Positions 38,430 to 56,730 of a stretch of DNA of 64,000 nucleotides are shown piece after piece. This DNA comes from Rhizobacter sp. (GTDB taxonomy: Bacteria; Pseudomonadota; Gammaproteobacteria; Burkholderiales; Burkholderiaceae_C): contig JANXZA010000072.1 in NCBI GenBank assembly GCA_025355745.1, positions 12,850 through 76,849 of the forward strand, read 5' to 3'. The translations under genes were made by a program, and so were the position numbers. A model generated the notes under the pieces. The model made no database searches, was not told where the DNA came from, and was given only the letters and a program-made list of their open reading frames with translations. The first letter of the stretch is position 1, and each line of letters starts with the position of its first letter.

Positions 38430-38480
38430 TTGCTCCAAATCCCTAGAGCCGCCAATGCGTGCCCCGCGAACCGGTTCCGG

Positions 38481-38553: not shown

Positions 38554-38599
38554 CTTGCAGGCGTGGTCGGGCGGGTGGTGGCAGCCACGGCGCGGGCGC

Positions 38600-41135: not shown

Positions 41136-41168
41136 GGCGGCGGTTTCAGTTGCTCACGGAATCAAGGA

Positions 41169-42212: not shown

Positions 42213-42281
42213 GGCTCTGCTCCCGGCGGTTGCATGACGCCCGAACGGGCCACGTTGCCCGGCGTCTGTGCAACTCATTAC

Positions 42282-42874: not shown

Positions 42875-43528
42875 CTACCCGCGCAGCCGCGCGACCATGA
42901 ACGCTGCCGCTTGAGTCAAGTGGGCGCGCACCAGGGTCTCAGCGCGGTCGCCTGCGCCGTCGATGATGGCGCCGAGGATTTCCGCGTGCTGGATCCAGAT
43001 GTCGCGCGGCGTCTCGTCGCGGGTCAGCACTTCGCCCATCACGCGCTGCGTGCAGGTCAGGTACGGAGCCAGCGTCGGCGCCATCAGCGGATTGCCCGAC
43101 AGCAAATTGATGACCGCGTGGAATTGCATGTCCGCAGCGATCATCTTCGGCACCGAGCCGCTGGCCACCGCCTTGCGGCCGGCCTCGATCAGCGCCGGCC
43201 CCAGCGCTGCGGCGCGCTTTGCGTTGCGTTCGGCGGCGAGCCGGCATGCCAGCCCTTCGATCACGGCGCGCAGGTCGTACATGTGGCGCACGTATTCCGG
43301 GTCCAGCGGCGCAACGATCAGCCGGCGGCCGGGCGCGTCGCGCAGCACTCCCTGGTTGAGCAGCACCGTCAGCGCTTGCTGGACCGGTTGGCGCGACACG
43401 CCCAGCGTGTGGGCCAGCGACGTCTGGACGAGGCGGTCGCCCGGCGCGAGCCGGCCCGAGGTGATCCCGTTCAGGATGGCGGCGTGCACCTGCTCGACGA
43501 GGCTGGGCGGGGCGGGCAGCGCCTTCAT
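42875..43528 (-). CDS. GntR (FCD) family transcriptional regulator, paralog 1
   Basis: SLVEQVHAAILNGITSGRLAPGDRL..LGVSRQPVQQAL wHTH plus FCD domain. Confidence 0.93.
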   Translation of the reverse strand: MKALPAPPSLVEQVHAAILNGITSGRLAPGDRLVQTSLAHTLGVSRQPVQQALTVLLNQGVLRDAPGRRLIVAPLDPEYVRHMYDLRAVIEGLACRLAAERNAKRAAALGPALIEAGRKAVASGSVPKMIAADMQFHAVINLLSGNPLMAPTLAPYLTCTQRVMGEVLTRDETPRDIWIQHAEILGAIIDGAGDRAETLVRAHLTQAAAFMVARLRG

Positions 43529-43656
43529 GGTGTCACTTTCGATCGAAACCAAACGGCGCTGACACAGCCAGCGCCCAGGCACGCCGCGATCACGCGGATC
43601 ACAGCATGCAGGAAACCGGCGCGGCGTCACAGTCGGGATAACACTGACTACAGAAC

Positions 43657-43668
43657 TCTGAATTCAGA
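43657..43668. promoter_or_regulatory. Palindromic operator TCTGAATTCAGA
   Basis: Perfect 12-bp palindrome in the gntR/Rieske divergent region; recurs at 54274 and 54317. Confidence 0.65.
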
Positions 43669-43789: not shown

Positions 43790-44374
43790 ATGCCCTCACG
43801 AAACCCCTGCAGTTGCAACGGCGAGATCCCCTTCGACGCGGGCCGACGCAAGGTCATCCAGATCGGCGCCGCCGGCTTTGTCTCGCCCTGGGCACTGGCA
43901 CCGAGCCTCGCCCTTGCCAAGCCGATGGTCGGCGACCGCCTGGTCGAGGACGATGCCGAAGGCACGCCGGCGCCGCTGCGCGCCTCGGACCTGCGTCCTG
44001 GCAAGCCATTACTCGCCTTCCCGTTCGACGCCATCAAGGGCGAGGTGCGCAGCGACTCGCGTCTGAACAAGATCGTGCTGATGCGCTTCGCCGAGGCCGA
44101 CATGAACGCCGAAACCCGCGCCCGCTCGGCCGGTGGCGTGGTGGCGTTTTCGGCCATCTGCACGCACCAGGGCTGCGACGTGAAGACCTGGCTGCCGAAG
44201 GAGCAGGCGCTGGTCTGCTTCTGCCACTCGACCAAGTTCCTGCTGCTCGAAGGCGGCAGCGTGGCCAGCGGCCCGGCGCTGCGCTCCCTGCCCTCTCTGC
44301 CCTTGTCACTCGACGGCGATCAGCTCGTGATCGCCGGGCCTTTCAGTGCGCCTGCGGGTGGCACGACGGCTTGA
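43790..44374 (+). CDS. Rieske 2Fe-2S protein with Tat-like signal
   Basis: GRRKVIQIGAAG signal; CTHQGC...CFCHSTKF Rieske ligands; GPALRSLP. Confidence 0.9.
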   Translation: MPSRNPCSCNGEIPFDAGRRKVIQIGAAGFVSPWALAPSLALAKPMVGDRLVEDDAEGTPAPLRASDLRPGKPLLAFPFDAIKGEVRSDSRLNKIVLMRFAEADMNAETRARSAGGVVAFSAICTHQGCDVKTWLPKEQALVCFCHSTKFLLLEGGSVASGPALRSLPSLPLSLDGDQLVIAGPFSAPAGGTTA

Positions 44375-44412: not shown

Positions 44413-46146
44413 ATGAAGTTTCTGTTGAACCGAATTGCAGTCGGTATCGCCGCCGCACTCCCCTGCATCGCAGCCCAGGCCGCACCGGCGACCTACTCGC
44501 CCGTCACCGACGCGCGGCTGAGCAACCCCGAGCCGGCCAACTGGCTGCAGTACCGCGGCAACTACGCGGGCTGGGGCTACAGCGCGCTGGACAAGGTCAC
44601 CAGCAAGAACGTTGACAAGCTGACGCTGGCCTGGGCGTTTGCGACCGGCCAGACCGACGGCCACCAATCGCCGCCGGTGGTCAACAACGGCTACATGTAT
44701 GTCACCACGCCGGGCTCGCAGGTGATCGCCCTCGACGCCAAGACCGGTGCGGAGCTGTGGCGCTACAAAAAGGACGTGTCGGCCGAGATGCTGCAGCTGC
44801 ACCCGACGAATCGCGGCGTGGCGCTGTACGGCGACAAGGTCTACGTGGCCACGGTCGACTGCTTCCTCGTGGCGCTCGACGCGAAGACCGGCAAGGTCGC
44901 CTGGATCAAGCCCGTCGGCGACTGGAAGGCACTGCAATACATGACGCTCGCGCCGCTGGCGGCCAAGGGCAAGATCATGGTCGGTTCTTCCGGCGGCGAG
45001 ACCGGTGTGCGTGGCTTCGTCGCAGCCTACGACGCAGAGACTGGCGCGGAGGCTTGGCGCACTTACACCACGGCCGCACCTGGCGATGTCGGCGGCGACT
45101 CCTGGCCCGGCGACACCCACAAGAATGGCGGCGGCAGCATCTGGATCACCGGCACCTACGACCCGGCTGCCAACCTCGCCTACTGGGGCACCGGCAACCC
45201 GGCGCCGTGGCCGACCGAAGAGCGCAAGGGCGACAACCTGTACACCACCTCGACGATCGCACTCGACGTCGACACCGGCAAGATCAAGGGCCACCACCAG
45301 TACACGCCGAACGATGCCTGGGACTGGGACGAGGTCTCGGCGCCGCTGCTGATCGATACCGAAATCAAGGGCCGCAAGGTCAAGGCGGCCGTGCATGCCG
45401 GGCGCAACGGCTACCTCTGGATGCTGGAGCGCAAGGACGGCCCGATCGGCTTCATCGACGCCGTCTCCTACGTCAACAACAACGTCTTCGCGTCGGTCGA
45501 CAAGGTCACCGGCCGGCCGACCTACAACCTCGACAAGCGCCCCGGCGTCGGCAAAGGCAATGTGACCTTCTGCCCGTCGCTTTGGGGCGGCAAGGACTGG
45601 GTGCCGGAAGCCTGGAACCCAAAGACCGGCCTGTTCTACATCCCCGCCAACAACAACCTGTGCTCGGAATTGCCCGAGCCCGAGGCCCTCAAATACAAGA
45701 AGGGTGACCTCTACATCGGCTACCCGATCGACAAGGTGCTGGGCGGCCTGAAGTATCAGGACGGCAAGGCCCCGGCGACGATCGGCGAGTTGCAGGCCTG
45801 GGACCTGAAGACCGGCAAGCTGGCCTGGGTGCACAAGTTCCCGACCTTCAACTGGGGCCCACTGCTGACCACCGGCGGCAACCTGGTGTTCGCCGGCGGC
45901 ACCAACGACCGCATGTTCCGTGCCTTCGACGCTACCAACGGCAAGGTGCTGTGGGAAACCGCCACGCCGTCGGGTGTGACCGGCGTGCCGAGTTCATTCG
46001 AAATCGACGGCGAGCAGTACGTGGCCGTGCAGTCCGGCTGGGGCGTCGATGCCCAGCGCATGCAGGCCGGCATCGACACCTTGTCGGGCAAGGTCACCGG
46101 CGTGCCGCAGGGCGGCTCGGTGATGGTCTACAAGCTCTCGAAGTGA
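44413..46146 (+). CDS. Periplasmic PQQ-dependent dehydrogenase (methanol/ethanol family fold)
   Basis: Sec signal; WLQYRGNYAGWGYSAL, HQSPPVV, ALDAKTG repeats, GGETGVRG, YWGTGNP, GDNLY, DAWDWD; GGAG RBS. Confidence 0.93.
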   Translation: MKFLLNRIAVGIAAALPCIAAQAAPATYSPVTDARLSNPEPANWLQYRGNYAGWGYSALDKVTSKNVDKLTLAWAFATGQTDGHQSPPVVNNGYMYVTTPGSQVIALDAKTGAELWRYKKDVSAEMLQLHPTNRGVALYGDKVYVATVDCFLVALDAKTGKVAWIKPVGDWKALQYMTLAPLAAKGKIMVGSSGGETGVRGFVAAYDAETGAEAWRTYTTAAPGDVGGDSWPGDTHKNGGGSIWITGTYDPAANLAYWGTGNPAPWPTEERKGDNLYTTSTIALDVDTGKIKGHHQYTPNDAWDWDEVSAPLLIDTEIKGRKVKAAVHAGRNGYLWMLERKDGPIGFIDAVSYVNNNVFASVDKVTGRPTYNLDKRPGVGKGNVTFCPSLWGGKDWVPEAWNPKTGLFYIPANNNLCSELPEPEALKYKKGDLYIGYPIDKVLGGLKYQDGKAPATIGELQAWDLKTGKLAWVHKFPTFNWGPLLTTGGNLVFAGGTNDRMFRAFDATNGKVLWETATPSGVTGVPSSFEIDGEQYVAVQSGWGVDAQRMQAGIDTLSGKVTGVPQGGSVMVYKLSK

Positions 46147-46202: not shown

Positions 46203-47198
46203 CTACACCAGCAGGGCGACCGCCGCCGAGAAGCTCAGGAAGGCGAGTGCGGTGCTGACCAGGACGATGCGGGCAATGCGCCCCGCATCGGCACCGAAAC
46301 GCTCCGCCAGCATCGGCACATTGCTGGCGCTGGGCAGTGCCGCCACCAGGGCCAGCACCGTCGCGGCGAAGCCGTCCAGCGGTGCCCCCAGCGCGATCGC
46401 GAGCCGGCCGGTGCCCAGCACCAGGGCCGGGTGCACGATCAGCTTGTAAAACACGATCAGCGGTACGTCGTTGCGGCGCAGCGCAGTCGTTGCGGATGCG
46501 GTTGCGGATGCGGTCAGTGCGGCCTGCATTGACGAGCGCGCGAGCATCGCGCCGAGCGCGAACAGCGCGACCGGCGACGCGGCATCGGCCAGCATCGCCA
46601 CCGGCCGCATCAGCACGCCCGGCACGCTCATGCTCGTGGCCGATACGACGCAGCCCAAACCGATCGACCAGGGCAGCGGGTTGGCGGCCATTCCCTTCAG
46701 CGCGTTCAGCACCGCCCGACTCGAGCGGTGCGCCTGGCCTGTGGCCGCCCCTGACCCGCGTCGCGACAGCGCGATGCACAGGGACGAGGTGATCACCATG
46801 TCGACGGCCAACGCCACGATGGCGGGGGCCGCAGCCCGATCGCCCAGCAGCCCGACCAGCAGCGGCACGCCCATGAAGCCCGAGTTCGGGAAGGCCGCCA
46901 CCAGCGCGCCGAACGAAGCGTCGTTCCAACCCACCCGGCCGGTGCGTGTCGTGATCACGCACAGGCCCACCATCAGCAGGGCGCACAGCAGGTAGGTGCC
47001 GAAGATGCTCGGGTCGAGCATGCGCGCGATCGGCGTTGCGGCGCCGAAGCGGAACAGCATGCAGGGCAGGGCGAAATACAGCACGAACAGATTCAGCCCC
47101 GGGATCGACTCCAGCGGCAGCCAGCCGCAGCGCGCGACGGCATAGCCGCACAACACCAGCGCGAAGAATGGAAAGGTGATCTCGAGGATGTGCAGCAT
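46203..47198 (-). CDS. AEC (auxin efflux carrier) family transporter
   Basis: FVLYFALPCMLF, FPNSGFMGVPL, ALPSASNV; about 10 TM. Confidence 0.9.
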   Translation of the reverse strand: MLHILEITFPFFALVLCGYAVARCGWLPLESIPGLNLFVLYFALPCMLFRFGAATPIARMLDPSIFGTYLLCALLMVGLCVITTRTGRVGWNDASFGALVAAFPNSGFMGVPLLVGLLGDRAAAPAIVALAVDMVITSSLCIALSRRGSGAATGQAHRSSRAVLNALKGMAANPLPWSIGLGCVVSATSMSVPGVLMRPVAMLADAASPVALFALGAMLARSSMQAALTASATASATTALRRNDVPLIVFYKLIVHPALVLGTGRLAIALGAPLDGFAATVLALVAALPSASNVPMLAERFGADAGRIARIVLVSTALAFLSFSAAVALLV

Positions 47199-47208: not shown

Positions 47209-47261
47209 CAAGGTCACCAAGGTCACCGACGTCACCAACGTCAACACCGTCAACACCGTCA
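47209..47261. repeat. Degenerate 9-bp tandem repeat filling the intergenic gap
   Basis: CAAGGTCAC CAAGGTCAC CGACGTCAC CAACGTCAA CACCGTCAA CACCGTCA. Confidence 0.7.
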
Positions 47262-48305
47262 GCGGTCGCCCAGGCTGCTCGAACCCGCAGCCTGAACCCG
47301 CTGCGCCTGGCGCCAGCCGGCCTCGGCAATCGGCTGCGCCTGCTGCCCCGTGCGTTCAGCGTCGGCGCTGGCCGCGCTGCCCTGGCGCGCTCGCGCCAGG
47401 ATGCCCTGCAGGATCGCCGCCATCCGGAACATGTTGAATGCCAGGTAGTAGTCCCAGTGCGGCAGGCTGGCGCGGCCGGTGCGCTTGCAGTAGGCGGCCA
47501 GGTAAGCGTCTTCCGAGGGGATGCCGAGGGCGGCGAGTTCGTGCCCCTTCAGGCCGCGGAACTCCGTCGGCGTGACGCGCCAGGCCATGCCGTGGTAGGC
47601 CAGATCGACGAGCGGGTGGCCGAGCGTGGAGAGTTCCCAGTCGAGCACCGCCAGCACCCGCGCTTCGGTCGGGTGGAAGATCAGGTTGTCGATGCGGAAG
47701 TCGCCGTGCACGAGCGCGGTTTCGTCGCCCTCGGGGCGGTTCGCCGGCAGCCAATCGATCAGCCGCTCCATCGCGTCGATGCGCCCGGTTTCGCTGGCGC
47801 GGTACTGGCGCGTCCAGCGCTCAATCTGGCGCGCCAGGTAGTTCTGCGGCCGGCCGTAATCGGCCAGGCCCAGCGCTTGCACATCGACACCGTGCAGCGC
47901 GGCGATGACGCGGTTCATCTCGGCGTAGACCGCGCCGCGCTCGGGGTTCGTCAGGCCGGGCAGCGCGGGGTCGGCGAAGACGCGGCCCTCGATGAAGTCC
48001 ATCACGTAGAACGGCGAGCCGATGACCGCCGGGTCTTCGCACAGCGCGTGCATGCGCGGCACCGGCACGCCGCTGCCGGCGAGCGCGGCCATCACGCGGT
48101 ACTCGCGCTCGATGGCGTGTGCCGAGGCCAGCAGCACCCCCGGCGGCTTGCGGCGCAGCACCCAGCGGTGTTCGCCGGCGCTGACCCGGTAGGTCGGGTT
48201 CGACTGGCCGCCGATGAGCTGCGCCACCTGCAGCGGGCCATGGAAGTCAGTGACATGGCGGCGCAGGTAGGTCGCCAGGGCCTCTACGGGCAGCAGTTCG
48301 ATCAC
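47259..48305 (-). CDS. APH/phosphotransferase family protein (ACAD10/11 N-terminal-like)
   Basis: GGQSNPTY, LRRKPPG, HAIEREY, HGDFRIDN, VLDWELSTLG; GTG start overlaps the upstream stop. Confidence 0.92.
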   Translation of the reverse strand: MIELLPVEALATYLRRHVTDFHGPLQVAQLIGGQSNPTYRVSAGEHRWVLRRKPPGVLLASAHAIEREYRVMAALAGSGVPVPRMHALCEDPAVIGSPFYVMDFIEGRVFADPALPGLTNPERGAVYAEMNRVIAALHGVDVQALGLADYGRPQNYLARQIERWTRQYRASETGRIDAMERLIDWLPANRPEGDETALVHGDFRIDNLIFHPTEARVLAVLDWELSTLGHPLVDLAYHGMAWRVTPTEFRGLKGHELAALGIPSEDAYLAAYCKRTGRASLPHWDYYLAFNMFRMAAILQGILARARQGSAASADAERTGQQAQPIAEAGWRQAQRVQAAGSSSLGDR

Positions 48306-49489
48306 GGCGGCGCGGCCGCCGGCCGCGCGCCCTTCAGGATGCGCTTGGCCAGGCTCCAGCGGTGCACCTCGGACGGGCCGTCGTAGATGCGGAAGGCGCG
48401 CATGTCGGCAAAGATGCGCGCCACCACCGTCTCGCCGGTCACGCCCTGGCCGCCGAGGATCTGCACACAGCGGTCGGCGACGCGCCAGACCGCCTCGGAG
48501 ACGACGACCTTGGCGCGGCTCGACTCGTGCAGCGCGAGCTGGCCCTGGTCGAGCACCCAGGCGCAGTGCTGCACCGTCAGGCGCGCAATGTGCAGGTCCA
48601 TCTCGTTGTCGGCCAGCATGAAGCCCACGCCTTCGTGCTCGCCGATCGGCCGGCCGAAGGCGAGCCGGCGGCGCGCGTAGTCGAGCGCCACGTCGTGGGC
48701 ACGGCGCGCCGCGCCAAGCCAGCGCATGCAGTGCGTCAGCCGCGCGGGCGACAGCCGCACCTGCGCGTACCGGAAGCCCTGGCCCAGCTCGCCGAGGATG
48801 GCCGAGGCGGGCACCCGCAGGCCTTCGAAGCGCAGCACGCCGTGCCCGCCGGGAAAGCAGGTGTCGAGCGTGTCCATGTTGCGTTCCAGCGTGATGCCGG
48901 GCGTGCCCATGTCGGCCAAGAACATGGTCGCACCGACGTCGGGCACCTTGGCCATGATGATGGCGAGCGCTGCGCCGTCGGCGCCGGTGATGAACCACTT
49001 GTGGCCGTTGATGACGTAGTGGCCGTCGGCAGCGTCGAGCACGGCGGTGGTCGTCATCATCGACGGGTCGCTGCCGGCGCCCGGCGCCGGCTCGGTCATG
49101 CAGAAACAGGAGCGGATGCGCCCTTCGGCCATCGGCCGCAGCCACTGCTCCTTCTGCTGCGCCGTGGCCACGGCCTCGAGCAAATGCATATTGCCTTCGT
49201 CGGGCGCGAAAATGTTCAGCGCCACCGGGCCGAGCATCGAGTAGCCAGCCTCCTCGAACGCCACCGCGCGGCCGATGTGCGACAGGCCGAGGCCACCGTA
49301 CTCGGCCGCCGCGTGCGGCGACAGCAGCCCGGCGCGCCGCGCCTTGTCGACGAGCGCCTCGCGCAGCGCTTCTTCCGGGCCGTGCGCGCCCTGGCGCGGA
49401 TCGGCTTCGAAGGGCATCACCTCGTCGGCGATGAAACGCTTGATGCGGGCCTGCAGTTCGATCAGTTCGGGTGTCAGCGTGAAGTCCAT
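48302..49489 (-). CDS. Acyl-CoA dehydrogenase
   Basis: FCMTEPAPGAGSD, INGHKWFITGA, RLSPARLTHCMRW, FRIYDGPSEVH. Confidence 0.93.
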   Translation of the reverse strand: MDFTLTPELIELQARIKRFIADEVMPFEADPRQGAHGPEEALREALVDKARRAGLLSPHAAAEYGGLGLSHIGRAVAFEEAGYSMLGPVALNIFAPDEGNMHLLEAVATAQQKEQWLRPMAEGRIRSCFCMTEPAPGAGSDPSMMTTTAVLDAADGHYVINGHKWFITGADGAALAIIMAKVPDVGATMFLADMGTPGITLERNMDTLDTCFPGGHGVLRFEGLRVPASAILGELGQGFRYAQVRLSPARLTHCMRWLGAARRAHDVALDYARRRLAFGRPIGEHEGVGFMLADNEMDLHIARLTVQHCAWVLDQGQLALHESSRAKVVVSEAVWRVADRCVQILGGQGVTGETVVARIFADMRAFRIYDGPSEVHRWSLAKRILKGARPAAAPP

Positions 49490-49520
49490 GGTCTCGGTCT
49501 GAATCTCGGTTCGGGGCGGC

Positions 49521-51254
49521 TCAGCTTTGCCGCCATTTGTGCTCGGCTTCGTCCCAAGCGCCCAGTGCCTGCAGGTCGGGCACCCAGGCCAGGCCGGACT
49601 TGGCGTCGGAGGATACGGCCTCGGGCGTGACCAGAACGTCGAGCAGCGCCGGCCGCCCGGCACGAACCACGGCCAGCGCGCGCTGGATCGCACCCGGCAG
49701 GTCCTCGGCGCGCTCGACGCGTTCGGCGTGCAGGCCGAAGGCGCGCGCCATCGCGGCGTGGTCGGCAAACTGCAGCCGCGTTCCCACCACCTTGCCGTGG
49801 GTCTCCTGCTGGTCGCGCACCTCGATCGCCCAACTGCCGTTGTTGGCGACCACGATCAGCACCGGCGCCTTGTGGCGCGCGGCGGTGTCGATCTCCATCG
49901 CGTTGAAGCCGAACGCGCCGTCGCCGGTGGCCACGACCACGGTGCGGTCCGGGCAGGCCAGGCTGGCCGCCACGCCGAACGGCGTGCCGATGCCGATGCA
50001 GCCCAGCGAGCCGGGGTCGAGATAACTCGTGGCGGGCAGGCCGACCCGCGCGAAGCTGAGGAAGTCGCCGCCATCGGCGACCAGGATGGCGTCGCGCGGC
50101 AAGGCCTCGCGCAGCGCGGCCAGCAGCCGGTTGGGGTGCATCAGGCCGTCACGGCCGGGCGCCGCCTGGGCCATCGAAGTGACCAGCTTGTCGGCGCGCG
50201 CCTGGTGCTTGGCGCGGGTGCTGCGTGCCCACTCGATGTCGGTGGCCGGGGCGCGGTCAGCGCCGCGTTCGAGGATGGCTTCGAGCGCTGCGGCCGGGCT
50301 GGCGTAGATCTCGGCCGCGCCGCGCCGGTTGTCGCGCAGCTCGGCAGCGCAGTCGGCGATGCGCACGAAGCGCGCGCCGCCGAACACCGCCGGCGAGCCA
50401 TAGGCAAGCTGGAAGTCGAGCCGGCGGCCGACCGTGACCACCACGTCGGCCTCGCTCATCACCGAGCCGCGCATCGCCGCCACCACCGATGGGTGGTCTT
50501 CGGGCACCAGGCCTCGGCTCTCGCCGGTGTCGAGGTAGAGCGCGTTCAGACGCCCGAGCAGGCGCTGCAGTGGCGCCCCTGCCGCGCGCGCGCCACGGCC
50601 GGAGATGAACAGCGGTCGGCGCGCCGACCAGAGCAGCTCGACCGCCTCGTCGATGGCCGCCGGATCGGGCAGCAGGCTGCGCTTGGGCCGTGGCGCCATC
50701 AGCTCCGGCAGTTGCACCGCACGCGAGACTTCGGCGCGCAGCGTGTCGACCGGGAAGTCGAGGTACACCGGGCCCGGCTCGCCAGCGTGGCCGAGCGCGC
50801 GCGCCACGGCTTCGTCCAGCTCCTGCAGCGCCAGGTCGGGCTCGCGCACGGTGCGGGCGTAGCGCGTCAGCGGGCGCACGAAGTCGGTGTGGACCATGTC
50901 CTGCAGCGCGCCGCGGTTCTCCTGCGCGCGCGGCGGCGTGCCCGAGAGCACCAGCACCGGCGCCTTGGCCACGTGCGCATTTGCAATGCCGGTCATCGCG
51001 TTGGTGACACCGGGGCCGGCAGTGACCAGCGCCACGCCGAGGCCGCCAGTGAGTTCGGCATGGGCGTGCGCCATGTAGACGGCGGCGCGCTCATCACGCA
51101 CGTCGATGATGCGGATGCCTTCGGCGTCGAGCCGCATCCAGATCGGCATGATGTGGCCACCGCACAGGCCGAACACGCGGTCGACGCCGCGCGCCTTCAG
51201 AAAGCGCGCCACCAGCGCGGCGGTGCAGGTGTCGGAAACGGTGGGGCTGCTCAT
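49521..51254 (-). CDS. ThDP-dependent enzyme, IlvBL/2-hydroxyacyl-CoA lyase-like
   Basis: LCGGHI, RDERAA, AGPG, VADGGDF, GDGAFGF..NN ThDP motif. Confidence 0.85.
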   Translation of the reverse strand: MSSPTVSDTCTAALVARFLKARGVDRVFGLCGGHIMPIWMRLDAEGIRIIDVRDERAAVYMAHAHAELTGGLGVALVTAGPGVTNAMTGIANAHVAKAPVLVLSGTPPRAQENRGALQDMVHTDFVRPLTRYARTVREPDLALQELDEAVARALGHAGEPGPVYLDFPVDTLRAEVSRAVQLPELMAPRPKRSLLPDPAAIDEAVELLWSARRPLFISGRGARAAGAPLQRLLGRLNALYLDTGESRGLVPEDHPSVVAAMRGSVMSEADVVVTVGRRLDFQLAYGSPAVFGGARFVRIADCAAELRDNRRGAAEIYASPAAALEAILERGADRAPATDIEWARSTRAKHQARADKLVTSMAQAAPGRDGLMHPNRLLAALREALPRDAILVADGGDFLSFARVGLPATSYLDPGSLGCIGIGTPFGVAASLACPDRTVVVATGDGAFGFNAMEIDTAARHKAPVLIVVANNGSWAIEVRDQQETHGKVVGTRLQFADHAAMARAFGLHAERVERAEDLPGAIQRALAVVRAGRPALLDVLVTPEAVSSDAKSGLAWVPDLQALGAWDEAEHKWRQS

Positions 51255-51308
51255 GAAGTGGCGCCTTGCAAGAATTCAGAAAGAGCCGGGGTTCAGGGAA
51301 CCCGGGAG

Positions 51309-53195
51309 TCAAAGAAAGCCGGTGGAAATCCACGGCACGGCCGTGACGATGGCCAGCCCTACCAGCAGCGCCAGCACATAGCCGACGATCGGCTTCATGC
51401 CGTCCTTCGGGTCGACGCGGCCGATGGCGCAGGCGGCGTAGTAGCCCACGCCGAAGGGCGGCGCGAACAAGCCCACGCCCATCGCCAACACGACGACCAT
51501 CGCGTAATGCACCTCGTGGACGCCGACCTGGCGGGCGATCGGGAACAGCAGCGGCCCGAACAGCACGATGGCCGGGATGCCTTCGAGCACGCTGCCCAGC
51601 ACGATGAAAGCCACCACGGACACGAACAGGAACATCGGCACGCCACCGGGCAGCGCGCCCATCGCCGCCGCCAGGCTGTTGGAGAAGCCCGACTGCGTCA
51701 GCGACCAGGCCATGGCCGTGGCGGTGCCGATGATGAACAGAATGGCGCCCGACAGCGCGGCGGTTTCCACCAGCATCGGAAACATGCGGTTCCACTTCGT
51801 CTGGCGGTAGATCAGCAGCCCGGCGATCAGCGCGTAGGCGATGCCCAGGGTCGAGACCTCGGTGGCCGTGGCCACGCCGTACACGACGGCGGCGCGGATC
51901 ACGAATGGCAGCGCGACGGCGGGCAGTGCGACCAGCAGGGCCTGGCCGATCTGGCGGCCGGTGGCGCGCTTCACCTGCGACAGGTCTTCGTGGCGATAGC
52001 GCCAGCCGATCACGGCGCACAGCGCCAGCCCCATCACCACGCCGGGCAGCATGCCGCCGGTGAAGAGCGCGGCGATCGAGACGCCGGTCACCGAGCCGAT
52101 GGTGATGAGCACCAGGCTGGGCGGGATGGTCTCGGTCTGCGCGCCGCTGGTGGCCAGCAGTGCCACCAGGTCGCCGGGCTTGGCACCGCGCTGGCGCATT
52201 TCGGGGAACAGCACCGGGGCGACGGCGGCCATGTCGGCCACCTTCGAGCCCGAGATGCCCGACACCAGGTACATCGCGCCGATCAGCACATACGACAGCC
52301 CGCCGCGCACATGGCCGATCAGGCTGGCCAGGAACGTGACCATGGCGCGCGCCATGCCGGTGGCCTCGATCAACAGGCCGAGGAAGACGAACAGCGGCAC
52401 CGCCAGCAGGATGATGTGCGACATGCCCTCGTCCATGCGGCCGACGATCACGCCGACCGGCAGCGTCGTCGTCAGCGCCAGAAAGCCGAACGTGGCCAGG
52501 CCGAAGGACACCGCGATCGGCACGCCGATCAGCACCGTGAAGGCGGTGACGCCGACGAAGAAGATCACCAGATTGAGCTTGCCCAGGCCCGGCAGCAGCG
52601 GCTGCAGCAGCCACAGCAGCAGGCCGACCGCGATGACCGCTCCGACTGCGGCGCCGGCCTGCCGCCAGTCGGCAGTCTTGAACAGGCGCAGCAGCGACAT
52701 CAGCGCCATCAAGCCCAGCCCCACGGGCAACGCAGCGGCACGCCAGGCGGCCGAAATGTCGAGTGCTGGCGTGGTCACCGCCGCTTCTTCGAGCACGTGC
52801 TCATAGGCCGGCCACAGGTTGAGCAGCAGGAAGGCCAGTGCGGCGGCGATGGCCACGGTGTCGAGGAAGGCGCGCAACTTCGGCGAGGCCTTCGCCACCA
52901 GCGCCGTCATGCGCATGTGCTCGCCGTGGCGGAAGGCCACCACGGCCCCCAGGCTGACGAGCCACAGGAACAGCAGCGAGGCGACTTCGTCGGTCCAGAC
53001 CAGCGGCAGGTGGAGAAAGTAGCGCGAGACCACGCCCATGAACAGGATCACGATTTCGGCCACGATCAGCGTGGCTGCGATCGCCTCGATGGCGCCGCCC
53101 AGGCGGCGGTCCAGCGCCAGCACCCAGACGTTCGTGCTGCTGGGGCCGGCGCTCGGCGGCATCTCGCTGCGCAGGGGTTGCGACGGGGCGCGCAT
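51309..53195 (-). CDS. TRAP transporter fused small+large permease (DctQM)
   Basis: WTDEVASLLFLW..HMRM (DctQ) followed by ISGSKVADMAA, IPPS, FAPPFG (DctM). Start approximate. Confidence 0.92.
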   Translation of the reverse strand: MRAPSQPLRSEMPPSAGPSSTNVWVLALDRRLGGAIEAIAATLIVAEIVILFMGVVSRYFLHLPLVWTDEVASLLFLWLVSLGAVVAFRHGEHMRMTALVAKASPKLRAFLDTVAIAAALAFLLLNLWPAYEHVLEEAAVTTPALDISAAWRAAALPVGLGLMALMSLLRLFKTADWRQAGAAVGAVIAVGLLLWLLQPLLPGLGKLNLVIFFVGVTAFTVLIGVPIAVSFGLATFGFLALTTTLPVGVIVGRMDEGMSHIILLAVPLFVFLGLLIEATGMARAMVTFLASLIGHVRGGLSYVLIGAMYLVSGISGSKVADMAAVAPVLFPEMRQRGAKPGDLVALLATSGAQTETIPPSLVLITIGSVTGVSIAALFTGGMLPGVVMGLALCAVIGWRYRHEDLSQVKRATGRQIGQALLVALPAVALPFVIRAAVVYGVATATEVSTLGIAYALIAGLLIYRQTKWNRMFPMLVETAALSGAILFIIGTATAMAWSLTQSGFSNSLAAAMGALPGGVPMFLFVSVVAFIVLGSVLEGIPAIVLFGPLLFPIARQVGVHEVHYAMVVVLAMGVGLFAPPFGVGYYAACAIGRVDPKDGMKPIVGYVLALLVGLAIVTAVPWISTGFL

Positions 53196-53200
53196 GGGCG

Positions 53201-54214
53201 TCAGGCGATTTCGCCGGCGTACTGCTGCAACAGGCCCCAGGGCTCGGCGCCGAACTTTTCCTTCGCCTGGCTGTAGAAGCCGCCGCTGCTGAGAACGCGC
53301 CGGAAGGCAGTGTTGTCGACGGTGTTGAAGACGAGGCCCTTGCCCTCGAGCAGCTTTTGCAGGTCGACGTTGGCGCGGGCGATATCGTCACGCTGCTTGC
53401 GAGCCGCGCCGTTCATGTGCTTGGTGATCACTTGCTGCATATCACCCGGCAGCGATTTCCATGCCTTCCCGCCAGCCAGGAACCAGAAGCCGTCCCAGGA
53501 ATGATTGGTCAGCGAACAGAACTTCTGGACCTCGAAGAACTTGGCCGACTCGATCAGTGCCAGCGGATTTTCTTGCCCGTCGGCCACCTTGGTTTGCAGC
53601 GCTTGATACGCCTCGGCCAGCGGCAGGCTCACCGGCGCGGCGCCCAGCGTCTTGAACATCTGCACCCACAGCGGCACGACCGGCACGCGGATCTTGAAGT
53701 TCTTCAGGTCGTCGGGCGTGTTGATGGGCTTGGTGCTGGTGGTGATCTGGCGGAAGCCGTTGTCCCACACTGTGGCGAAGGGCACGACATTGATCTTCTC
53801 GATGGCCGCGCGAATGTGGTTGCCCACCGCACCGTCCATCGCGGCCCAGACCTTGTCGTAGCCGGAAAACGCGAAGCCCACTCCGGTGATCGACGTGACC
53901 GGGACCAGGGTCGACATCACCGTGCCGGGGAAGGTGGCCAGTTCGAGGGCGCCGGAGCGAATCTGCGACATCATGTCCGCGTCACCGCCCAACTGGTTGT
54001 TGGGGAACAGCTCGATCGCCACGCGGCCGCCGGTCTCGGTCGAGATTGCCGCGATTGCTTCCTTCAAGCGCACGTTCACCGAGTGCGTCACCGGCAGGTC
54101 GTTGCCCAGCTTGAGCTTGAACTCGGGCGCCTTGACCTGCGCCAGCGACAGGCCGGGCAGCGCCGCACCGGCGAATGCGCCGGTGGCGAGGAAATGTCTG
54201 CGGGTGAAGGTCAT
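53201..54214 (-). CDS. TRAP transporter substrate-binding protein (DctP family), Tat-like signal
   Basis: MTFTRRHFL, FPNNQLGGD, WDNGFRQIT, KIRVP, ADGQENP. Confidence 0.92.
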   Translation of the reverse strand: MTFTRRHFLATGAFAGAALPGLSLAQVKAPEFKLKLGNDLPVTHSVNVRLKEAIAAISTETGGRVAIELFPNNQLGGDADMMSQIRSGALELATFPGTVMSTLVPVTSITGVGFAFSGYDKVWAAMDGAVGNHIRAAIEKINVVPFATVWDNGFRQITTSTKPINTPDDLKNFKIRVPVVPLWVQMFKTLGAAPVSLPLAEAYQALQTKVADGQENPLALIESAKFFEVQKFCSLTNHSWDGFWFLAGGKAWKSLPGDMQQVITKHMNGAARKQRDDIARANVDLQKLLEGKGLVFNTVDNTAFRRVLSSGGFYSQAKEKFGAEPWGLLQQYAGEIA

Positions 54215-54273
54215 CTTCGTCTCCTGGAGGGGGTCGTGCGGAAGGGTGTCGATCGGGAATAGCCGTATAGTAT

Positions 54274-54332
54274 TCTGAATTCAGAGTGCTAATATCAGGG
54301 CTATCCCTAGTCGAACTCTGAATTCAGAGTTC
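54274..54332. promoter_or_regulatory. Two palindromic operators in the TRAP / CoA-ligase divergent promoter
   Basis: TCTGAATTCAGA at 54274-54285 and a perfect 20-bp GAACTCTGAATTCAGAGTTC at 54313-54332. Confidence 0.75.
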
Positions 54333-54383
54333 TAACATTAACTCATCTGCGGCGCTCTGCAACGCCCCTGAAGGAGACCTCCC

Positions 54384-55946
54384 ATGAACCATCTGCTGAC
54401 CGTGGCCGACGCTGTGGCAGCGCATGCACGCCTGCAGCCGCAGAAGGTCGGCGCCCGCGATTCGCGGCGCGCGCTGACCTTCGCCCAGTGGCACGAACGC
54501 GCCAGCCGGCTGGCCAACGGCCTGCTCGCGCTGGGTCTGGTGAAGGGCGACCGCGTGGCGCTGCTGGCCTACAACTGCATCGAGTGGATGGAGATGTATG
54601 CCGCCCTGGCGCGCGCCGGTCTGGTGGCGGTGCCGATCAATTTCCGGCTCACCGCGCCGGAGATCGCCTACATCGCCACGCACTGCGAGGCGCGTGCCTT
54701 CATCGTGCAGCAGGAACTGCTCGATCACGTCGATTCGATCCGCCCCGATCTGACCATTGAGCCCCACGCGTACATCAACATCGGCGCCGCGGCTGCCCCC
54801 GGCTGGCAAGGCTACGAGGCACTGATTGAAGGCGCCGGCACGCAAGACCCGCCGCAGGCCGTTCTACCGGCCGACCCGTGCGCGCTGATGTACACCTCGG
54901 GCACGACCGGGCGACCGAAGGGCGCCATCCGCAGCCACGAAGGCAACACGCTGATCGCACTGGCGACGGCGCTGGAGATGGGCTTCACGCGCCATGACAC
55001 GGCGCTGCTGGTGATGCCGATGTGCCATGCCAACTCGCTGTACTTCAGCCACACCTTCGTTCACCTGGGCGCCACCTGCGTGATCGACGACCGCAAGAGC
55101 TTTGACCCCGAGGCGCTGCTGGCCACGCTGGCGCGCGAGAAGGTGACCTTCACCTCGCTGGTGCCGACCCACTACATCATGATGCTGGGCCTGCCCGAAG
55201 CCACCAAGGCGCGGTACGACGTGAGCGCAGTCGAAAAGCTGATGATCTCCTCGGCCCCGGCGCGCAAGGACACGAAACTCGCGATCCTGGAGCACTTCCG
55301 CAATGGCCGGCTTTACGAGTTGTACGGCTCCACCGAAGCCGGCTGGGTGACCTTGCTGCACCCCGAAGAGCAGATCGACAGGCTCGGTTCGGTGGGGCGC
55401 GAATGGGCCGGCTCCGGCGCCATCCGCATGCTTGACCCACAAGGCCACGAAGTGCCGGACGGCGAGGTCGGCGAGCTGCACTCGCGCACGCCCTACGTCT
55501 TCGACGGCTACTGGAAGGACGCGCAGAAGACGGCCGAATGCTTTCGCGACGGCTGGTGCTCGGTGGGCGACATGGCGCGCCGCGGCGAAGGCGGCTACAT
55601 CACGCTGGTGGATCGCAAGAGCAATATGATCATCAGCGGCGGCGAGAACATCTATCCGTCCGAGGTCGAAAGCATCTTTGGCGCGCACCCGCAGATCAAG
55701 GATGTGGCCATCATCGGCCTGCCGCACGAGAAGTGGGGCGAGGCCGTGCAGGCCGTCATCGTGCTCCACCTCGGGCAACAGGCCACGGCCGCACAAATGC
55801 TGGATTGGTGCCGCGGCCGCATGGCGGGCTACAAGCGCCCGCAGTCGGTGGTCTTCATCGCCGACCACGACATGCCGCGCACCGCCACCGGCAAGATCCT
55901 GCATCGCGTGTTGCGCGACCGGCTGAGCATGCAGGCCCTGAGTTGA
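54384..55946 (+). CDS. AMP-dependent acyl-CoA synthetase
   Basis: YTSGTTGRPKG, YGSTEAG, VGDMA, DRKSNMIISGGENIYP, GKIL; AGGAG RBS. Confidence 0.94.
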   Translation: MNHLLTVADAVAAHARLQPQKVGARDSRRALTFAQWHERASRLANGLLALGLVKGDRVALLAYNCIEWMEMYAALARAGLVAVPINFRLTAPEIAYIATHCEARAFIVQQELLDHVDSIRPDLTIEPHAYINIGAAAAPGWQGYEALIEGAGTQDPPQAVLPADPCALMYTSGTTGRPKGAIRSHEGNTLIALATALEMGFTRHDTALLVMPMCHANSLYFSHTFVHLGATCVIDDRKSFDPEALLATLAREKVTFTSLVPTHYIMMLGLPEATKARYDVSAVEKLMISSAPARKDTKLAILEHFRNGRLYELYGSTEAGWVTLLHPEEQIDRLGSVGREWAGSGAIRMLDPQGHEVPDGEVGELHSRTPYVFDGYWKDAQKTAECFRDGWCSVGDMARRGEGGYITLVDRKSNMIISGGENIYPSEVESIFGAHPQIKDVAIIGLPHEKWGEAVQAVIVLHLGQQATAAQMLDWCRGRMAGYKRPQSVVFIADHDMPRTATGKILHRVLRDRLSMQALS

Positions 55947-56037
55947 CGGGCATCCGCCGGCCTCGCGCCTCAGCCTTCCCCGACGGCGCGAGAATGTGCT
56001 CTTGTTTCTTTCAACGATCTGCAACGACCGGCGAAGC

Positions 56038-56730
56038 ATGAAGGCCCTTACGACCCAGCCCAACCTCGTGGAGCAAGTCCGCGATGCGGTGCTCGACGAA
56101 ATCACCTCCGGTCACCTGGCGCCGGGCGAGCGCATCATCCAGGAGCAGATCGCGCAGGCGCTGGGCGTGTCGCGCCAGCCGGTCCAGCAAGCGCTGATGC
56201 TGCTGCGCAACCAGGGTGTGCTGCACGACGCGCCGGGCCGCGGCCTGCTCGTCGCGTCGCTGGACCCGGAGCATGTGGGCCACATGTACGACATGCGCGC
56301 GGTGATTGAAGGCCTGGCCTGCCGCCGCGCGGCGCAAACCGGCGCCGAACGCGCCGCCAAGCTCGGGCCGGCATTGATCGAAGCCGGGCGCAAGGCTGTG
56401 GCCAGCGGCTCGGTCGCGAAGATGATTGCCGCCGACATGAAGTTCCACGAATTTCTCTACGCGCTGTCGGGCAATCCGCTGGTCGGGCCGGCACTTGCGA
56501 CGCACCTGACCTACACGCAGCGGGTGATGGGCGAGGTGCTGCTGCGCGACGAGAAGCCGCGCAACATCTGGGACCAGCATGCCGAGATCCTCGACGCGAT
56601 CTGTCGCCAGGACGCGCAGCGTGCCGAGGCTCTGGTGCGCCAGCACATCACGCAGGCATCGGGCTTCATGGTGTCAAGGTTGCGCGGTGATGCGGCCGGC
56701 GCGCCTGGTGCAGCCGGTGCAGCCGGATAA
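56038..56730 (+). CDS. GntR (FCD) family transcriptional regulator, paralog 2
   Basis: NLVEQVRDAVLDEITSGHLAPGERI..LGVSRQPVQQAL; long identical stretches shared with 42875-43528 (e.g. LGPALIEAGRKAVASGSV, TQRVMGEVL). Confidence 0.93.
   Translation: MKALTTQPNLVEQVRDAVLDEITSGHLAPGERIIQEQIAQALGVSRQPVQQALMLLRNQGVLHDAPGRGLLVASLDPEHVGHMYDMRAVIEGLACRRAAQTGAERAAKLGPALIEAGRKAVASGSVAKMIAADMKFHEFLYALSGNPLVGPALATHLTYTQRVMGEVLLRDEKPRNIWDQHAEILDAICRQDAQRAEALVRQHITQASGFMVSRLRGDAAGAPGAAGAAG

What the first reader, a model, noticed from the sequence alone, without database searches (positions are those of the whole stretch)
47259..55946. Candidate 2-hydroxyacyl-CoA lyase route that could feed acetone to the neighbouring monooxygenase
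Seen: TRAP, acyl-CoA synthetase, a ThDP enzyme with GGH and VADGGDF motifs (IlvBL/HACL-like rather than AHAS-like; no AHAS small subunit nearby), acyl-CoA dehydrogenase and an APH-like protein. Known: HACL enzymes cleave 2-hydroxyacyl-CoA into a carbonyl compound plus formyl-CoA, and an actinobacterial enzyme yields acetone from 2-hydroxyisobutyryl-CoA. Inference (speculative): diol or hydroxy acid -> CoA ester -> ketone/aldehyde + formyl-CoA, with acetone consumed via the prm island. This would make 26-57 kb an integrated branched short-chain catabolic region in a proteobacterium.
Basis: inference. Interest (0 to 1): 0.55.

Follow-up and report, generated by a model that had tools for sequence, protein, structure and literature searches.

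The report
Proteobacterial 2-hydroxyacyl-CoA lyase regulon

Summary
[quoted passage not shown] It scores 594 bits against the AcHACL crystal sequence, against 237 for the next class. All seven published active-site residues and the C-terminal lid are kept.

In 83 related loci the conserved core is lyase + a FadD-type CoA ligase (66/83, usually divergent) + a GntR/FCD regulator (64/83). Recurrent accessories are a TRAP importer, an AEC transporter, a Rieske/PQQ alcohol dehydrogenase pair and an ACAD + kinase pair. An exact palindrome, TCTGAATTCAGA, marks both promoter regions here and occurs in 59 of 86 loci, so this is one regulon.

The ACAD and APH genes are LvaC/LvaA (ACAD10/11)-type enzymes for 4-hydroxyacyl-CoA.

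The prm island has its own sigma-54 activator and its closest relatives are alphaproteobacterial. PrmA was found in 1 of 251 genomes of the order and in none of the 83 loci. The acetone hand-over is therefore possible here but unsupported as a rule.

The scan has found AcHACL-type lyases on other DNA before. Verdict: new member of a known kind, in an undescribed regulon context.

The parts
49521..51254 (-). AcHACL-type 2-hydroxyacyl-CoA lyase (ThDP-dependent), 577 aa
   Evidence: NCBIfam NF058623 equivalog, 809 bits against cut-off 600. PDB 7pt1, 594 bits against 237 for the next class. H34, E55, T78, L117, Q118, I477 and E478 correspond to AcHACL H44, E65, T88, L127, Q128, I492 and E493. The lid aligns to the end of the protein.
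54384..55946 (+). Acyl-CoA ligase (FadD5/FadD13-like, not HCL-type), divergent from the lyase operon
   Evidence: Pfam AMP-binding. Best PDB matches are FadD5, feruloyl-CoA synthetase and malonyl-CoA synthetase. An ortholog lies next to the lyase in 66/83 loci, and also next to a 54%-identical second lyase clade.
55996..56730 (+). GntR/FCD regulator 1
   Evidence: Pfam GntR + FCD. Present in 64/83 loci. 70% identical to the second GntR at 42875-43630.
54274..54328 (.). Two exact copies of the palindrome TCTGAATTCAGA in the dctP/ligase divergent promoter region (54274-54285 and 54317-54328)
   Evidence: Exact copies at the equivalent place in most related loci.
53201..54214 (-). TRAP solute-binding protein DctP
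   Evidence: Pfam DctP. Best PDB match 4oan, 379 bits. Present in 14/83 loci.
51309..53195 (-). TRAP fused DctQ-DctM permease
   Evidence: Pfam DctQ + DctM. Present in 17/83 loci.
48302..49489 (-). LvaC/ACAD10-11-type acyl-CoA dehydrogenase-fold enzyme (4-phosphoacyl-CoA phosphate eliminase)
   Evidence: HCMR motif at residue 257 and catalytic Asp in YDGPSE, the features PMC12440821 gives as specific to ACAD10/11 and LvaC. ACAD11 structures are among the top PDB hits. Follows the lyase by 5-35 bp in many of the 29/83 loci that have it.
47259..48305 (-). LvaA/ACAD11-kinase-type 4-hydroxyacyl-CoA kinase (APH fold)
   Evidence: PDB 3dxp 429 bits; ACAD11 kinase domain 288 bits; HGDFRIDN catalytic loop aligned. 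Its GTG start overlaps the ACAD stop as GTGA. Present in 19/83 loci.
46203..47198 (-). AEC-family (Mem_trans) transporter, last gene of the operon
   Evidence: Pfam Mem_trans. Present in 17/83 loci, often where TRAP is missing.
42875..43630 (-). GntR/FCD regulator 2, divergent from the Rieske/PQQ pair
   Evidence: NCBIfam GntR-type hit. 70% identical to regulator 1.
43657..43668 (.). Third exact copy of TCTGAATTCAGA, in the GntR2/Rieske intergenic region
   Evidence: Copies also lie upstream of Rieske/PQQ in L031, L037, L053 and L071.
43790..44374 (+). Rieske iron-sulfur protein paired with the PQQ dehydrogenase
   Evidence: Pfam Rieske; NCBIfam QcrA-like. Present in 13/83 loci.
44413..46146 (+). 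Periplasmic PQQ-dependent alcohol dehydrogenase (methanol/ethanol family)
   Evidence: TIGR03075, 548 bits against cut-off 480. Signal-peptide-like N-terminus. Present in 12/83 loci.
26598..42278 (-). Neighbouring, separately regulated Prm/Mim-type di-iron monooxygenase island: sigma-54 activator, Nramp, GroEL-like, DUF59, amidohydrolase, prmDCBA, WD40, CobW, Zn-ADH
   Evidence: PrmA is 89% identical to a Bradyrhizobium protein. Found in 1/251 genomes of the order.

Best explanation
This is a GntR-controlled regulon for short hydroxy-carboxylic acids. Its core is CoA activation followed by thiamine-dependent C1-C2 cleavage.

Proposed steps:
1. A 2-hydroxy acid enters through the TRAP system or the AEC transporter. 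It may instead be made in the periplasm from a 1,2-diol by the co-regulated Rieske/PQQ alcohol dehydrogenase.
2. The FadD-type ligase makes the CoA ester.
3. The AcHACL-type lyase cleaves it into formyl-CoA and a small carbonyl compound.

The pocket residues and lid equal those of AcHACL. The preferred substrates are therefore most likely C4-C5, 2-methyl-branched acids: 2-hydroxyisobutyrate giving acetone, and 2-hydroxy-2-methylbutyrate giving butanone.

The translationally coupled ACAD + kinase pair in the same operon converts 4-hydroxyacyl-CoA through a 4-phospho intermediate to 2-enoyl-CoA. One ligase would then feed two modules, each dealing with a hydroxyacyl-CoA that beta-oxidation cannot take.

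In this genome acetone could be oxidised by the adjacent Prm/Mim-type monooxygenase under its own sigma-54 activator. That would be a local arrangement, not part of the conserved system.

Shown: enzyme family assignments, synteny, the shared operator.
Inferred: substrates, direction of flux, the acetone hand-over.
For: Lyase identity:
- NF058623 equivalog, 809 bits against cut-off 600.
- AcHACL PDB chains 594 bits, OXC/HACS 237 bits or less, AHAS about 126-144 bits.
- The residues named in PMC8760513 are identical in the window, in 119-120 of 120 close homologs and in a second clade.
- The lid sequence is conserved.

Partners: ligase 66/83, GntR 64/83, ACAD 29, APH 19, DctQM 17, AEC 17, DctP 14, Rieske 13, PQQ 12.

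Operator: three exact copies, confined to the two promoter regions. Allowing 2 mismatches there are 4 matches against 0.77 expected. Exact copies occur in 59/86 loci at the equivalent places. The twin GntRs are 70% identical.

LvaC/LvaA assignment: HCMR motif, catalytic Asp, ACAD11 hits.

Acetone route here:
- No acetone carboxylase gamma subunit found in the genome.
- No dedicated hcmAB-type mutase evident; only two MCM-family hits of 724 and 1154 aa.
- A Prm/Mim island lies 11 kb away.
- In Actinomycetospora the same lyase route feeds a Mim-type monooxygenase (PMC7176365).
Against: - No biochemical data exist for any proteobacterial member.
- The ligase is not an HCL ortholog, so 2-hydroxyisobutyrate activation is unproven.
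- 21 of 22 other lyase-bearing genomes sampled have neither a PrmA homolog nor an acetone carboxylase gamma subunit. Either acetone is not the usual product or it is not assimilated.
- Minimal loci such as Piscinibacter sakaiensis carry only regulator, ligase and lyase.
- No formyl-CoA transferase scores over its cut-off.
- The reason the 4-hydroxyacyl-CoA module is co-transcribed with the lyase is unexplained. The 'two bypass modules' idea is inference only.
Confidence: 0.6

Rival explanations
1. The chemistry is the same, but the physiological substrates are unbranched or hydroxylated short 2-hydroxy acids. Examples are lactate, 2-hydroxybutyrate, glycolate and 2-methylglycerate. Their products (acetaldehyde, propanal, acetol) enter central metabolism without an acetone pathway. 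The prm island next door would then be a coincidental, separately acquired accessory module.
For: - PrmA occurs in 1/251 genomes of the order, and acetone carboxylase gamma in 1/22 lyase-bearing genomes.
- Prm genes are in 0/83 loci.
- Within the genus, PrmA and the lyase each turn up in 1 of 15 other genomes, and in different ones.
- PrmA's closest named relatives are alphaproteobacterial.
- The prm island has its own activator.
- Minimal loci carry nothing for a ketone.
Against: The pocket residues L127/I492 and the lid, which fit the two methyl groups of 2-hydroxyisobutyryl, are identical to AcHACL throughout the clade. The papers I read report AcHACL activity only on tertiary C4/C5 substrates. 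This genome shows no other acetone route, yet keeps a Prm/Mim island beside the operon.
Confidence: 0.25
2. The lyase and the Lva-like module act in sequence on one substrate. A 2-hydroxy dicarboxylate such as 2-hydroxy-2-methylglutarate or 2-hydroxyglutarate would be activated and cleaved to formyl-CoA plus a 4-oxo acid (levulinate or succinic semialdehyde). That acid would then be re-activated, reduced by the SDR seen in other loci, phosphorylated, and converted to a 2-enoyl-CoA.
For: - In many of the 29/83 loci that have it, ACAD follows the lyase by 5-35 bp.
- An SDR was found between ACAD and kinase in the two loci I scanned (L018, L036), so the set resembles lvaD-A-C with a ligase (PMC12440821).
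- The importer is of the TRAP 'dicarboxylate' type.
- The modules are reshuffled between genomes but stay in one regulon.
Against: AcHACL excludes C6 acyl groups, and the size-limiting residues are unchanged here. The window has no SDR in the operon. Most lyase loci lack ACAD and kinase. No natural source of such a substrate is known to me.
Confidence: 0.1
3. The enzyme works mainly in the condensing direction (a 2-hydroxyacyl-CoA synthase). It would join formyl-CoA to acetone or an aldehyde, as proposed for anaerobic acetone degraders.
For: The AcHACL reaction is reversible (PMC8760513 abstract). A ThDP enzyme is proposed for acetone formylation in Desulfococcus (PMC7176365 discussion).
Against: - No dedicated 2-hydroxyisobutyryl-CoA mutase is evident to take the product on.
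- A carboxylate importer and an AMP-forming ligase argue for acid catabolism.
- No formyl-CoA-forming enzyme lies in the regulon, and no frc scores over its cut-off.
Confidence: 0.05

Closest known systems
AcHACL, the 2-hydroxyacyl-CoA lyase of Actinomycetospora chiangmaiensis DSM 45062, and its lyase-HCL cluster (PMC7176365; PMC8760513; PDB 7PT1-7PT4)
   Same: - Same enzyme family, by the NCBIfam equivalog model.
- Roughly 55% identity, by eye from the alignment.
- Same catalytic Glu, pocket residues and C-terminal lid.
- A CoA ligase and a GntR regulator lie beside it.
- An alcohol-oxidising step is associated.
- In that organism acetone goes to a Mim-type monooxygenase encoded elsewhere.
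   Different: - The host is a betaproteobacterium.
- The ligase is FadD-type, not HCL.
- MpdB/MpdC are replaced by a periplasmic Rieske/PQQ dehydrogenase pair.
- Added here: TRAP and AEC transporters, an LvaC/LvaA-type module and a conserved palindromic operator.
- The published papers I read describe the family only in actinobacteria.
lva operon of Pseudomonas putida (LvaA kinase, LvaC ACAD, LvaD SDR, LvaE ligase) and mammalian ACAD10/ACAD11 (PMC12440821)
   Same: The ACAD has the HCMR motif and a catalytic Asp. The kinase has the APH-type catalytic loop and matches the ACAD11 kinase domain at 288 bits. A ligase is present, and in other genomes an SDR as well.
   Different: The proteins are separate but translationally coupled, and the order is ACAD then kinase. 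They are embedded in a lyase operon. The window has no SDR and I did not look for an LvaB-like small protein. The substrate is unknown.
Oxalyl-CoA decarboxylase / HACL1-type lyases (OfOXC, RuHACL, HACS)
   Same: ThDP-dependent, three-domain fold, formyl-CoA as product.
   Different: They score only 190-237 bits against this protein. The OXC models fall far below their cut-offs. The window protein has the E493-type Glu and the long lid that, according to PMC8760513, OXC and RuHACL lack.
Prm/Mim propane-acetone monooxygenase clusters (Mycolicibacterium MimABCD; Bradyrhizobium-type prm)
   Same: Four-subunit di-iron monooxygenase with GroEL-like chaperonin, amidohydrolase and ADH genes. The effector matches the MimD model.
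   Different: The MimD score of 105 bits is below the cut-off of 150. The closest relatives are alphaproteobacterial. The island is not part of the GntR regulon. Its substrate here is untested.

Membership tests
AcHACL-type 2-hydroxyacyl-CoA lyase (NCBIfam NF058623) | Whole-protein score above the curated equivalog cut-off | tested here: met
   809.3 bits against cut-off 600, covering model positions 8-574 of 575. 808.9 bits in the genome search.
AcHACL-type 2-hydroxyacyl-CoA lyase (NCBIfam NF058623) | Catalytic Glu E493 on the short helix, preceded by I492 | tested here: met
   I477-E478 align with I492-E493. I and E in 120/120 close homologs.
AcHACL-type 2-hydroxyacyl-CoA lyase (NCBIfam NF058623) | Substrate and cofactor residues H44, E65, T88, L127, Q128 | tested here: met
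   H34, E55, T78, L117 and Q118 are identical.
AcHACL-type 2-hydroxyacyl-CoA lyase (NCBIfam NF058623) | Extended C-terminal lid (AcHACL residues 556-590) with helical breakout | tested here: met
   The alignment runs to residue 576 of 577. SGLAWVPDLQAL aligns with KGLGFVPDYQAL. No 3D model was made.
AcHACL-type 2-hydroxyacyl-CoA lyase (NCBIfam NF058623) | Cleaves 2-hydroxyisobutyryl-CoA to acetone + formyl-CoA | not testable with these tools
   Needs an enzyme assay.
Lyase-HCL gene cluster (Rohwerder et al. 2020) | HCL-type 2-hydroxyisobutyrate-CoA ligase next to the lyase | tested here: not met
   A ligase is adjacent, but its best PDB matches are FadD5, feruloyl-CoA synthetase and malonyl-CoA synthetase. 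No chain named HCL is among the 60 best. I did not align it directly with an HCL sequence.
Lyase-HCL gene cluster (Rohwerder et al. 2020) | GntR-family regulator beside the cluster | tested here: met
   GntR/FCD at 55996-56730. Present in 64/83 loci.
Lyase-HCL gene cluster (Rohwerder et al. 2020) | MpdB/MpdC dehydrogenases for diol to 2-hydroxy acid | tested here: not met
   No aldehyde dehydrogenase or GMC oxidoreductase was found in the scanned genes of the regulon. A PQQ dehydrogenase + Rieske pair is co-regulated instead.
Oxalyl-CoA decarboxylase | Score above the OXC model cut-offs | tested here: not met
   TIGR03254 241 bits against cut-off 739; NF006721 266 against 557.
Acetohydroxyacid synthase large subunit | Score above the AHAS model cut-offs, and a small regulatory subunit adjacent | tested here: not met
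   TIGR00118 233 bits against cut-off 538. No small-subunit gene among the scanned neighbours.
LvaC / ACAD10-11 phosphate-eliminating ACAD | HCMR motif with upstream Arg, and catalytic Asp in place of Glu | tested here: met
   R249/R254, H257-C-M-R260 and YDGPSE. Criteria from PMC12440821.
LvaA / ACAD10-11 4-hydroxyacyl-CoA kinase | APH-type kinase core with catalytic Asp and Asn, homologous to the ACAD11 N-terminal domain | tested here: met
   HGDFRIDN aligns with HGDFKLDN of ACAD11, 288 bits.
LvaA/LvaC module | Activity on 4-hydroxyacyl-CoA through a 4-phospho intermediate | not testable with these tools
   Needs an enzyme assay.
Prm/Mim propane 2-monooxygenase | Four subunits (alpha, reductase, beta, effector) with scores above the NCBIfam cut-offs | tested here: inconclusive
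   All four genes are present. MimD model 105 bits against cut-off 150; no model hit for the alpha subunit. Proteins 88% identical are named propane 2-monooxygenase by JGI.

The most novel reading that the evidence does not exclude
Freshwater and soil Burkholderiales carry an undescribed 'hydroxy-acid / diol' regulon. One GntR operator would coordinate a periplasmic Rieske-linked PQQ dehydrogenase, one broad CoA ligase and two bypass modules for acyl-CoAs that beta-oxidation cannot handle. The first module is alpha-cleavage of 2-hydroxyacyl-CoA by an AcHACL-type lyase. The second is phospho-elimination of 4-hydroxyacyl-CoA by LvaA/LvaC-type enzymes. Alternatively the two act in sequence on one still unknown natural substrate, such as a 2-hydroxy dicarboxylate that yields a 4-oxo acid.
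Probability: 0.25. Interest if true: 0.7.

Novelty: new member of a known kind. Interest (0 to 1): 0.45.

Why it matters
AcHACL is the only characterised short-chain, tertiary-alcohol-cleaving 2-hydroxyacyl-CoA lyase. It is sought after for synthetic one-carbon (formyl-CoA) condensation routes.

Close orthologs with an identical active site turn out to be common in betaproteobacteria: 23 of 251 sampled genomes of the order, and more than 120 sequence clusters at 82% identity or more. That widens the enzyme pool. It also suggests that 2-hydroxyisobutyrate-like acids are ordinary environmental substrates rather than a curiosity of fuel-oxygenate degraders.

The conserved operator and twin regulators give a ready handle for finding the inducer. 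The unexplained co-transcription with an ACAD10/11-type module links two 'awkward hydroxy acid' pathways that are also paired in mammalian peroxisomes (HACL1 and ACAD11).

Tried and rejected
- **AHAS or OXC identity for the ThDP enzyme.** Rejected on model scores and active-site residues.
- **HCL-type ligase.** Rejected; best structural relatives are FadD5, feruloyl-CoA and malonyl-CoA ligases.
- **Conserved prm-lyase linkage.** Rejected: 0/83 loci and 1/251 genomes.
- **Acetone carboxylase as the general acetone sink.** Found in 0 of the own genome and 1 of 22 carriers. The Pfam model rang in none of the 14 control genomes, but it did score in G115.
- **Formyl-CoA transferase.** None over the cut-off; best 246 bits against 504. 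The actinobacterial system also lacks a dedicated enzyme.
- **Ligand of the closest solved TRAP binding protein (4oan).** The AlphaFold model of DctP, built from 13 close orthologs, failed (pLDDT 36), so I ran no fold search. Paper searches did not find the entry. From memory, its density was modelled as (S)-2-acetolactate, a 2-hydroxy-2-methyl acid. This is unverified and not used as evidence.
- **Promoter/terminator scan.** Uninformative: 0 promoters, and terminators at the shuffle level.
- **tRNA genes flanking the region.** None.
- **Named-reference phylogeny (HACL1, ILVBL, OXC, AHAS).** Not built, because no named reference sequences were available as tool objects. Model and PDB scores were used instead.
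- **Literature on proteobacterial members.** Nothing found.

Full report
**1. Observation**

The region holds a six-gene operon on the minus strand:
- dctP (53201-54214)
- fused dctQM (51309-53195)
- a three-domain ThDP enzyme (49521-51254)
- an acyl-CoA dehydrogenase-fold gene (48302-49489)
- an APH-fold kinase (47259-48305)
- an AEC-family transporter (46203-47198)

An AMP-forming CoA ligase (54384-55946) and a GntR/FCD regulator (55996-56730) are transcribed divergently. Intergenic gaps in the operon are 5, 54 and 31 bp, then a 4-bp overlap, then 60 bp. The kinase's GTG start overlaps the ACAD stop as GTGA. None of the neighbouring genes I scanned is an AHAS small subunit.

**2. The ThDP enzyme**

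Against solved structures, the five best matches are all AcHACL, the 2-hydroxyacyl-CoA lyase of Actinomycetospora chiangmaiensis (7pt1 and its mutants). They score 591-594 bits over residues 8-576. The next class, the HACS/OXC proteins, scores 237 bits or less. Oxalobacter OXC scores 193 bits and plant AHAS about 126 bits.

The NCBIfam equivalog model for this lyase (NF058623) gives 809 bits against a cut-off of 600. The OXC and AHAS models all fall far below their cut-offs.

PMC8760513 names the functional residues:
- H44, T88 and Q128 hold the substrate and a central water.
- E65 activates the cofactor.
- E493 is the acid/base catalyst.
- L127, I492 and the lid (residues 556-590) limit the acyl group to C5 or smaller.

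In the printed alignment the PDB chain numbering is native + 11. The window protein has H34, E55, T78, L117, Q118, I477 and E478 at those positions. Its C-terminus aligns through the lid, with SGLAWVPDLQAL against KGLGFVPDYQAL. A MAFFT alignment shows the same seven residues in 119-120 of 120 close homologs. They are also kept in a second clade of the same order that is only 54-55% identical.

I therefore treat the enzyme as a member of the AcHACL family. It most likely has the same preference for short, 2-methyl-branched 2-hydroxyacyl-CoA esters. Activity itself is not shown.

**3. Distribution**

- The large protein database holds more than 120 clusters at 82% identity or more. The named ones come from Burkholderiales, including Piscinibacter sakaiensis and Rhodocyclaceae MAGs, and are mostly labelled 'acetolactate synthase' or 'thiamine pyrophosphate-binding protein'.
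- In species-representative genomes, 552 stretches encode a relative. The best 80 are 75-97% identical. By record title nearly all are betaproteobacteria: Rhizobacter, Rhodoferax, Rubrivivax, Piscinibacter, Polaromonas, Cupriavidus pinatubonensis, Leptothrix discophora, Aromatoleum tolulyticum, Variovorax, Limnohabitans, Massilia and others.
- In an even sample of the window's order, 23 of 251 genomes score above the family cut-off.
- Within the genus, 1 of 15 other genomes has it. The gene is accessory and patchy.
- The papers I read treat the family only as actinobacterial, and a targeted literature search found nothing on proteobacterial members.
- Earlier notes of this scan report AcHACL-type lyases next to hcm mutase operons in other genomes. 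The family outside Actinomycetospora is therefore not new to the scan.

**4. The conserved gene set**

I ran tblastn with the window's proteins against 83 loci. Next to the lyase it finds:

| Partner | Loci (of 83) |
|---|---|
| Ligase | 66 |
| GntR | 64 |
| ACAD | 29 |
| Kinase | 19 |
| DctQM | 17 |
| AEC | 17 |
| DctP | 14 |
| Rieske | 13 |
| PQQ dehydrogenase | 12 |
| Any prm gene | 0 |

Many of the misses are on short contigs. Further points:
- The ligase ortholog (63-69% identical) also sits directly downstream of the 54%-identical second lyase clade. The ligase-lyase pairing is thus older than the window's clade.
- The ligase is not the HCL type of the published cluster. Its best structural relatives are FadD5, feruloyl-CoA synthetase, FadD13 and malonyl-CoA synthetase.
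- Piscinibacter sakaiensis has only regulator, ligase and lyase.

**5. One regulon**

- It occurs exactly three times in 64 kb: twice in the 170-bp dctP/ligase divergent region (54274, 54317) and once between a second GntR gene (42875-43630) and the Rieske gene (43657).
- Allowing two mismatches there are 4 matches against 0.77 expected.
- Exact copies occur in 59 of 86 loci. They lie just upstream of the lyase or TRAP genes, and again upstream of the Rieske/PQQ pair where that pair is present.
- The two GntR proteins are 70% identical.

The periplasmic PQQ alcohol dehydrogenase (44413-46146; TIGR03075 548 bits against cut-off 480; signal-peptide-like N-terminus) and its Rieske partner (43790-44374) therefore belong to the same regulon. 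A periplasmic alcohol oxidation would take the place of the actinobacterial MpdB/MpdC.

**6. ACAD and APH**

The kinase matches 3dxp, a structural-genomics entry deposited as 'putative acyl-CoA dehydrogenase', at 429 bits. It matches the kinase domain of mouse ACAD11 at 288 bits, with the HGDFRIDN catalytic loop aligned. The ACAD's best named matches include ACAD11. It carries the HCMR motif, upstream arginines and a catalytic Asp (YDGPSE). PMC12440821 gives these as specific to ACAD10/11 and LvaC.

The pair is thus a split, translationally coupled version of the 4-hydroxyacyl-CoA kinase and 4-phosphoacyl-CoA eliminase of the levulinate (lva) pathway and of mammalian 4-hydroxy acid catabolism.

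In other genomes extra DNA separates ACAD and kinase. In the two such loci I scanned (L018, L036) it encodes an SDR, analogous in position to LvaD. In L036 PhaE/PhaC-like genes follow the SDR, and the same SDR-PhaE-PhaC run follows the ACAD in the Rhodocyclaceae loci L002/L003.

Why this module is so often co-transcribed with the lyase is unexplained. I can offer two ideas:
- One ligase feeds two bypass modules, one for 2-hydroxy- and one for 4-hydroxyacyl-CoA.
- A sequential pathway, in which lyase cleavage of a 2-hydroxy dicarboxyl-CoA yields a 4-oxo acid. The unchanged size-limiting residues argue against this one.

**7. The prm link**

The island at 26.6-42.3 kb encodes a four-subunit di-iron monooxygenase. 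It also encodes a GroEL-like chaperonin, DUF59, an amidohydrolase, a Zn-ADH, CobW, an Nramp transporter and its own GAF/sigma-54 activator.
- PrmA is 89% identical to a Bradyrhizobium protein, and its named relatives are mostly alphaproteobacterial.
- At E <= 1e-60 it was found only in this genome among 251 genomes of the order.
- Within the genus it was found in 1 of 15 other genomes, a different genome from the one with the lyase.
- It has no exact copy of the GntR operator. One 2-mismatch site lies inside prmC.

For the hand-over in this genome: no acetone carboxylase gamma subunit was found, and no dedicated 2-hydroxyisobutyryl-CoA mutase is evident. In Actinomycetospora the lyase route does feed a Mim-type monooxygenase that is encoded and induced separately.

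Against it as a general rule: 21 of 22 other lyase-bearing genomes have neither PrmA nor an acetone carboxylase gamma subunit.

I put the acetone-to-Prm hand-over in this genome at roughly one in three. '26-57 kb as one integrated unit' is not supported.

**8. Formyl-CoA**

No formyl-CoA transferase exceeds its cut-off. A formate-dehydrogenase-alpha-like gene exists elsewhere in the genome, scoring 505 bits, which is below the cut-off. The actinobacterial system likewise has no dedicated formyl-CoA enzyme. This neither supports nor refutes the reading.

**9. Verdict**

The system is a new member of a known kind. Its undescribed context comprises a non-orthologous ligase, a conserved operator with twin regulators, a Rieske/PQQ dehydrogenase, TRAP and AEC transporters and an Lva-type module. 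The link to the monooxygenase is local and unproven. No claim in this report rests on the unpublished genome G023.

Noticed in passing
window 48302-48305: The kinase's GTG start overlaps the ACAD stop codon (GTGA). This implies translational coupling of two proteins that are fused, in the opposite order, in animal ACAD10/11.
   Followed up: partly
L018:8558-9385; L036:12234-15372; L002:6912-9827: In other genomes an SDR lies between, or next to, the ACAD and kinase genes downstream of the lyase. In some, PhaE/PhaC-type PHA synthase genes follow. This hints at a levulinate / 4-hydroxyvalerate-like module linked to PHA formation.
   Followed up: partly
L087 (G115:C29), L088 (G204:C3), L089 (G092:C17): A second lyase clade in the same order is 54-55% identical to the window's enzyme and scores higher against the NCBIfam model (893-974 bits). 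It keeps all active-site residues. In G115 and G204 the same ligase type lies directly downstream on the same strand.
   Followed up: partly
L090 (G031:C1:1487600-1507400): A 75%-identical lyase is paired with a different ligase, whose best PDB match is an oxalyl-CoA synthetase at 154 bits, and with a GntR regulator. A radical-SAM gene lies nearby. This is a third ligase solution for the same lyase.
   Followed up: partly
window 26598-42278: The Prm/Mim-type monooxygenase island has mostly alphaproteobacterial closest relatives (89% identity to Bradyrhizobium). It was found in only 1 of 251 genomes of the order, which suggests horizontal acquisition.
   Followed up: partly
window 35362-35373: A 2-mismatch copy of the GntR operator (CCTGAATTCAGC) lies inside the prmC coding sequence. 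It is probably chance.
   Followed up: no
window 53201-54214: The TRAP binding protein is close (379 bits) to PDB 4oan. From memory, that entry's ligand density was modelled as a 2-hydroxy-2-methyl acid ((S)-2-acetolactate). I could not verify this with the tools at hand.
   Followed up: partly
L049, L052: Two loci with typical betaproteobacterial lyase-ligase-GntR sets are titled Synechococcus sp. and Candidatus Entotheonella MAGs. These are likely mis-binned contigs.
   Followed up: no
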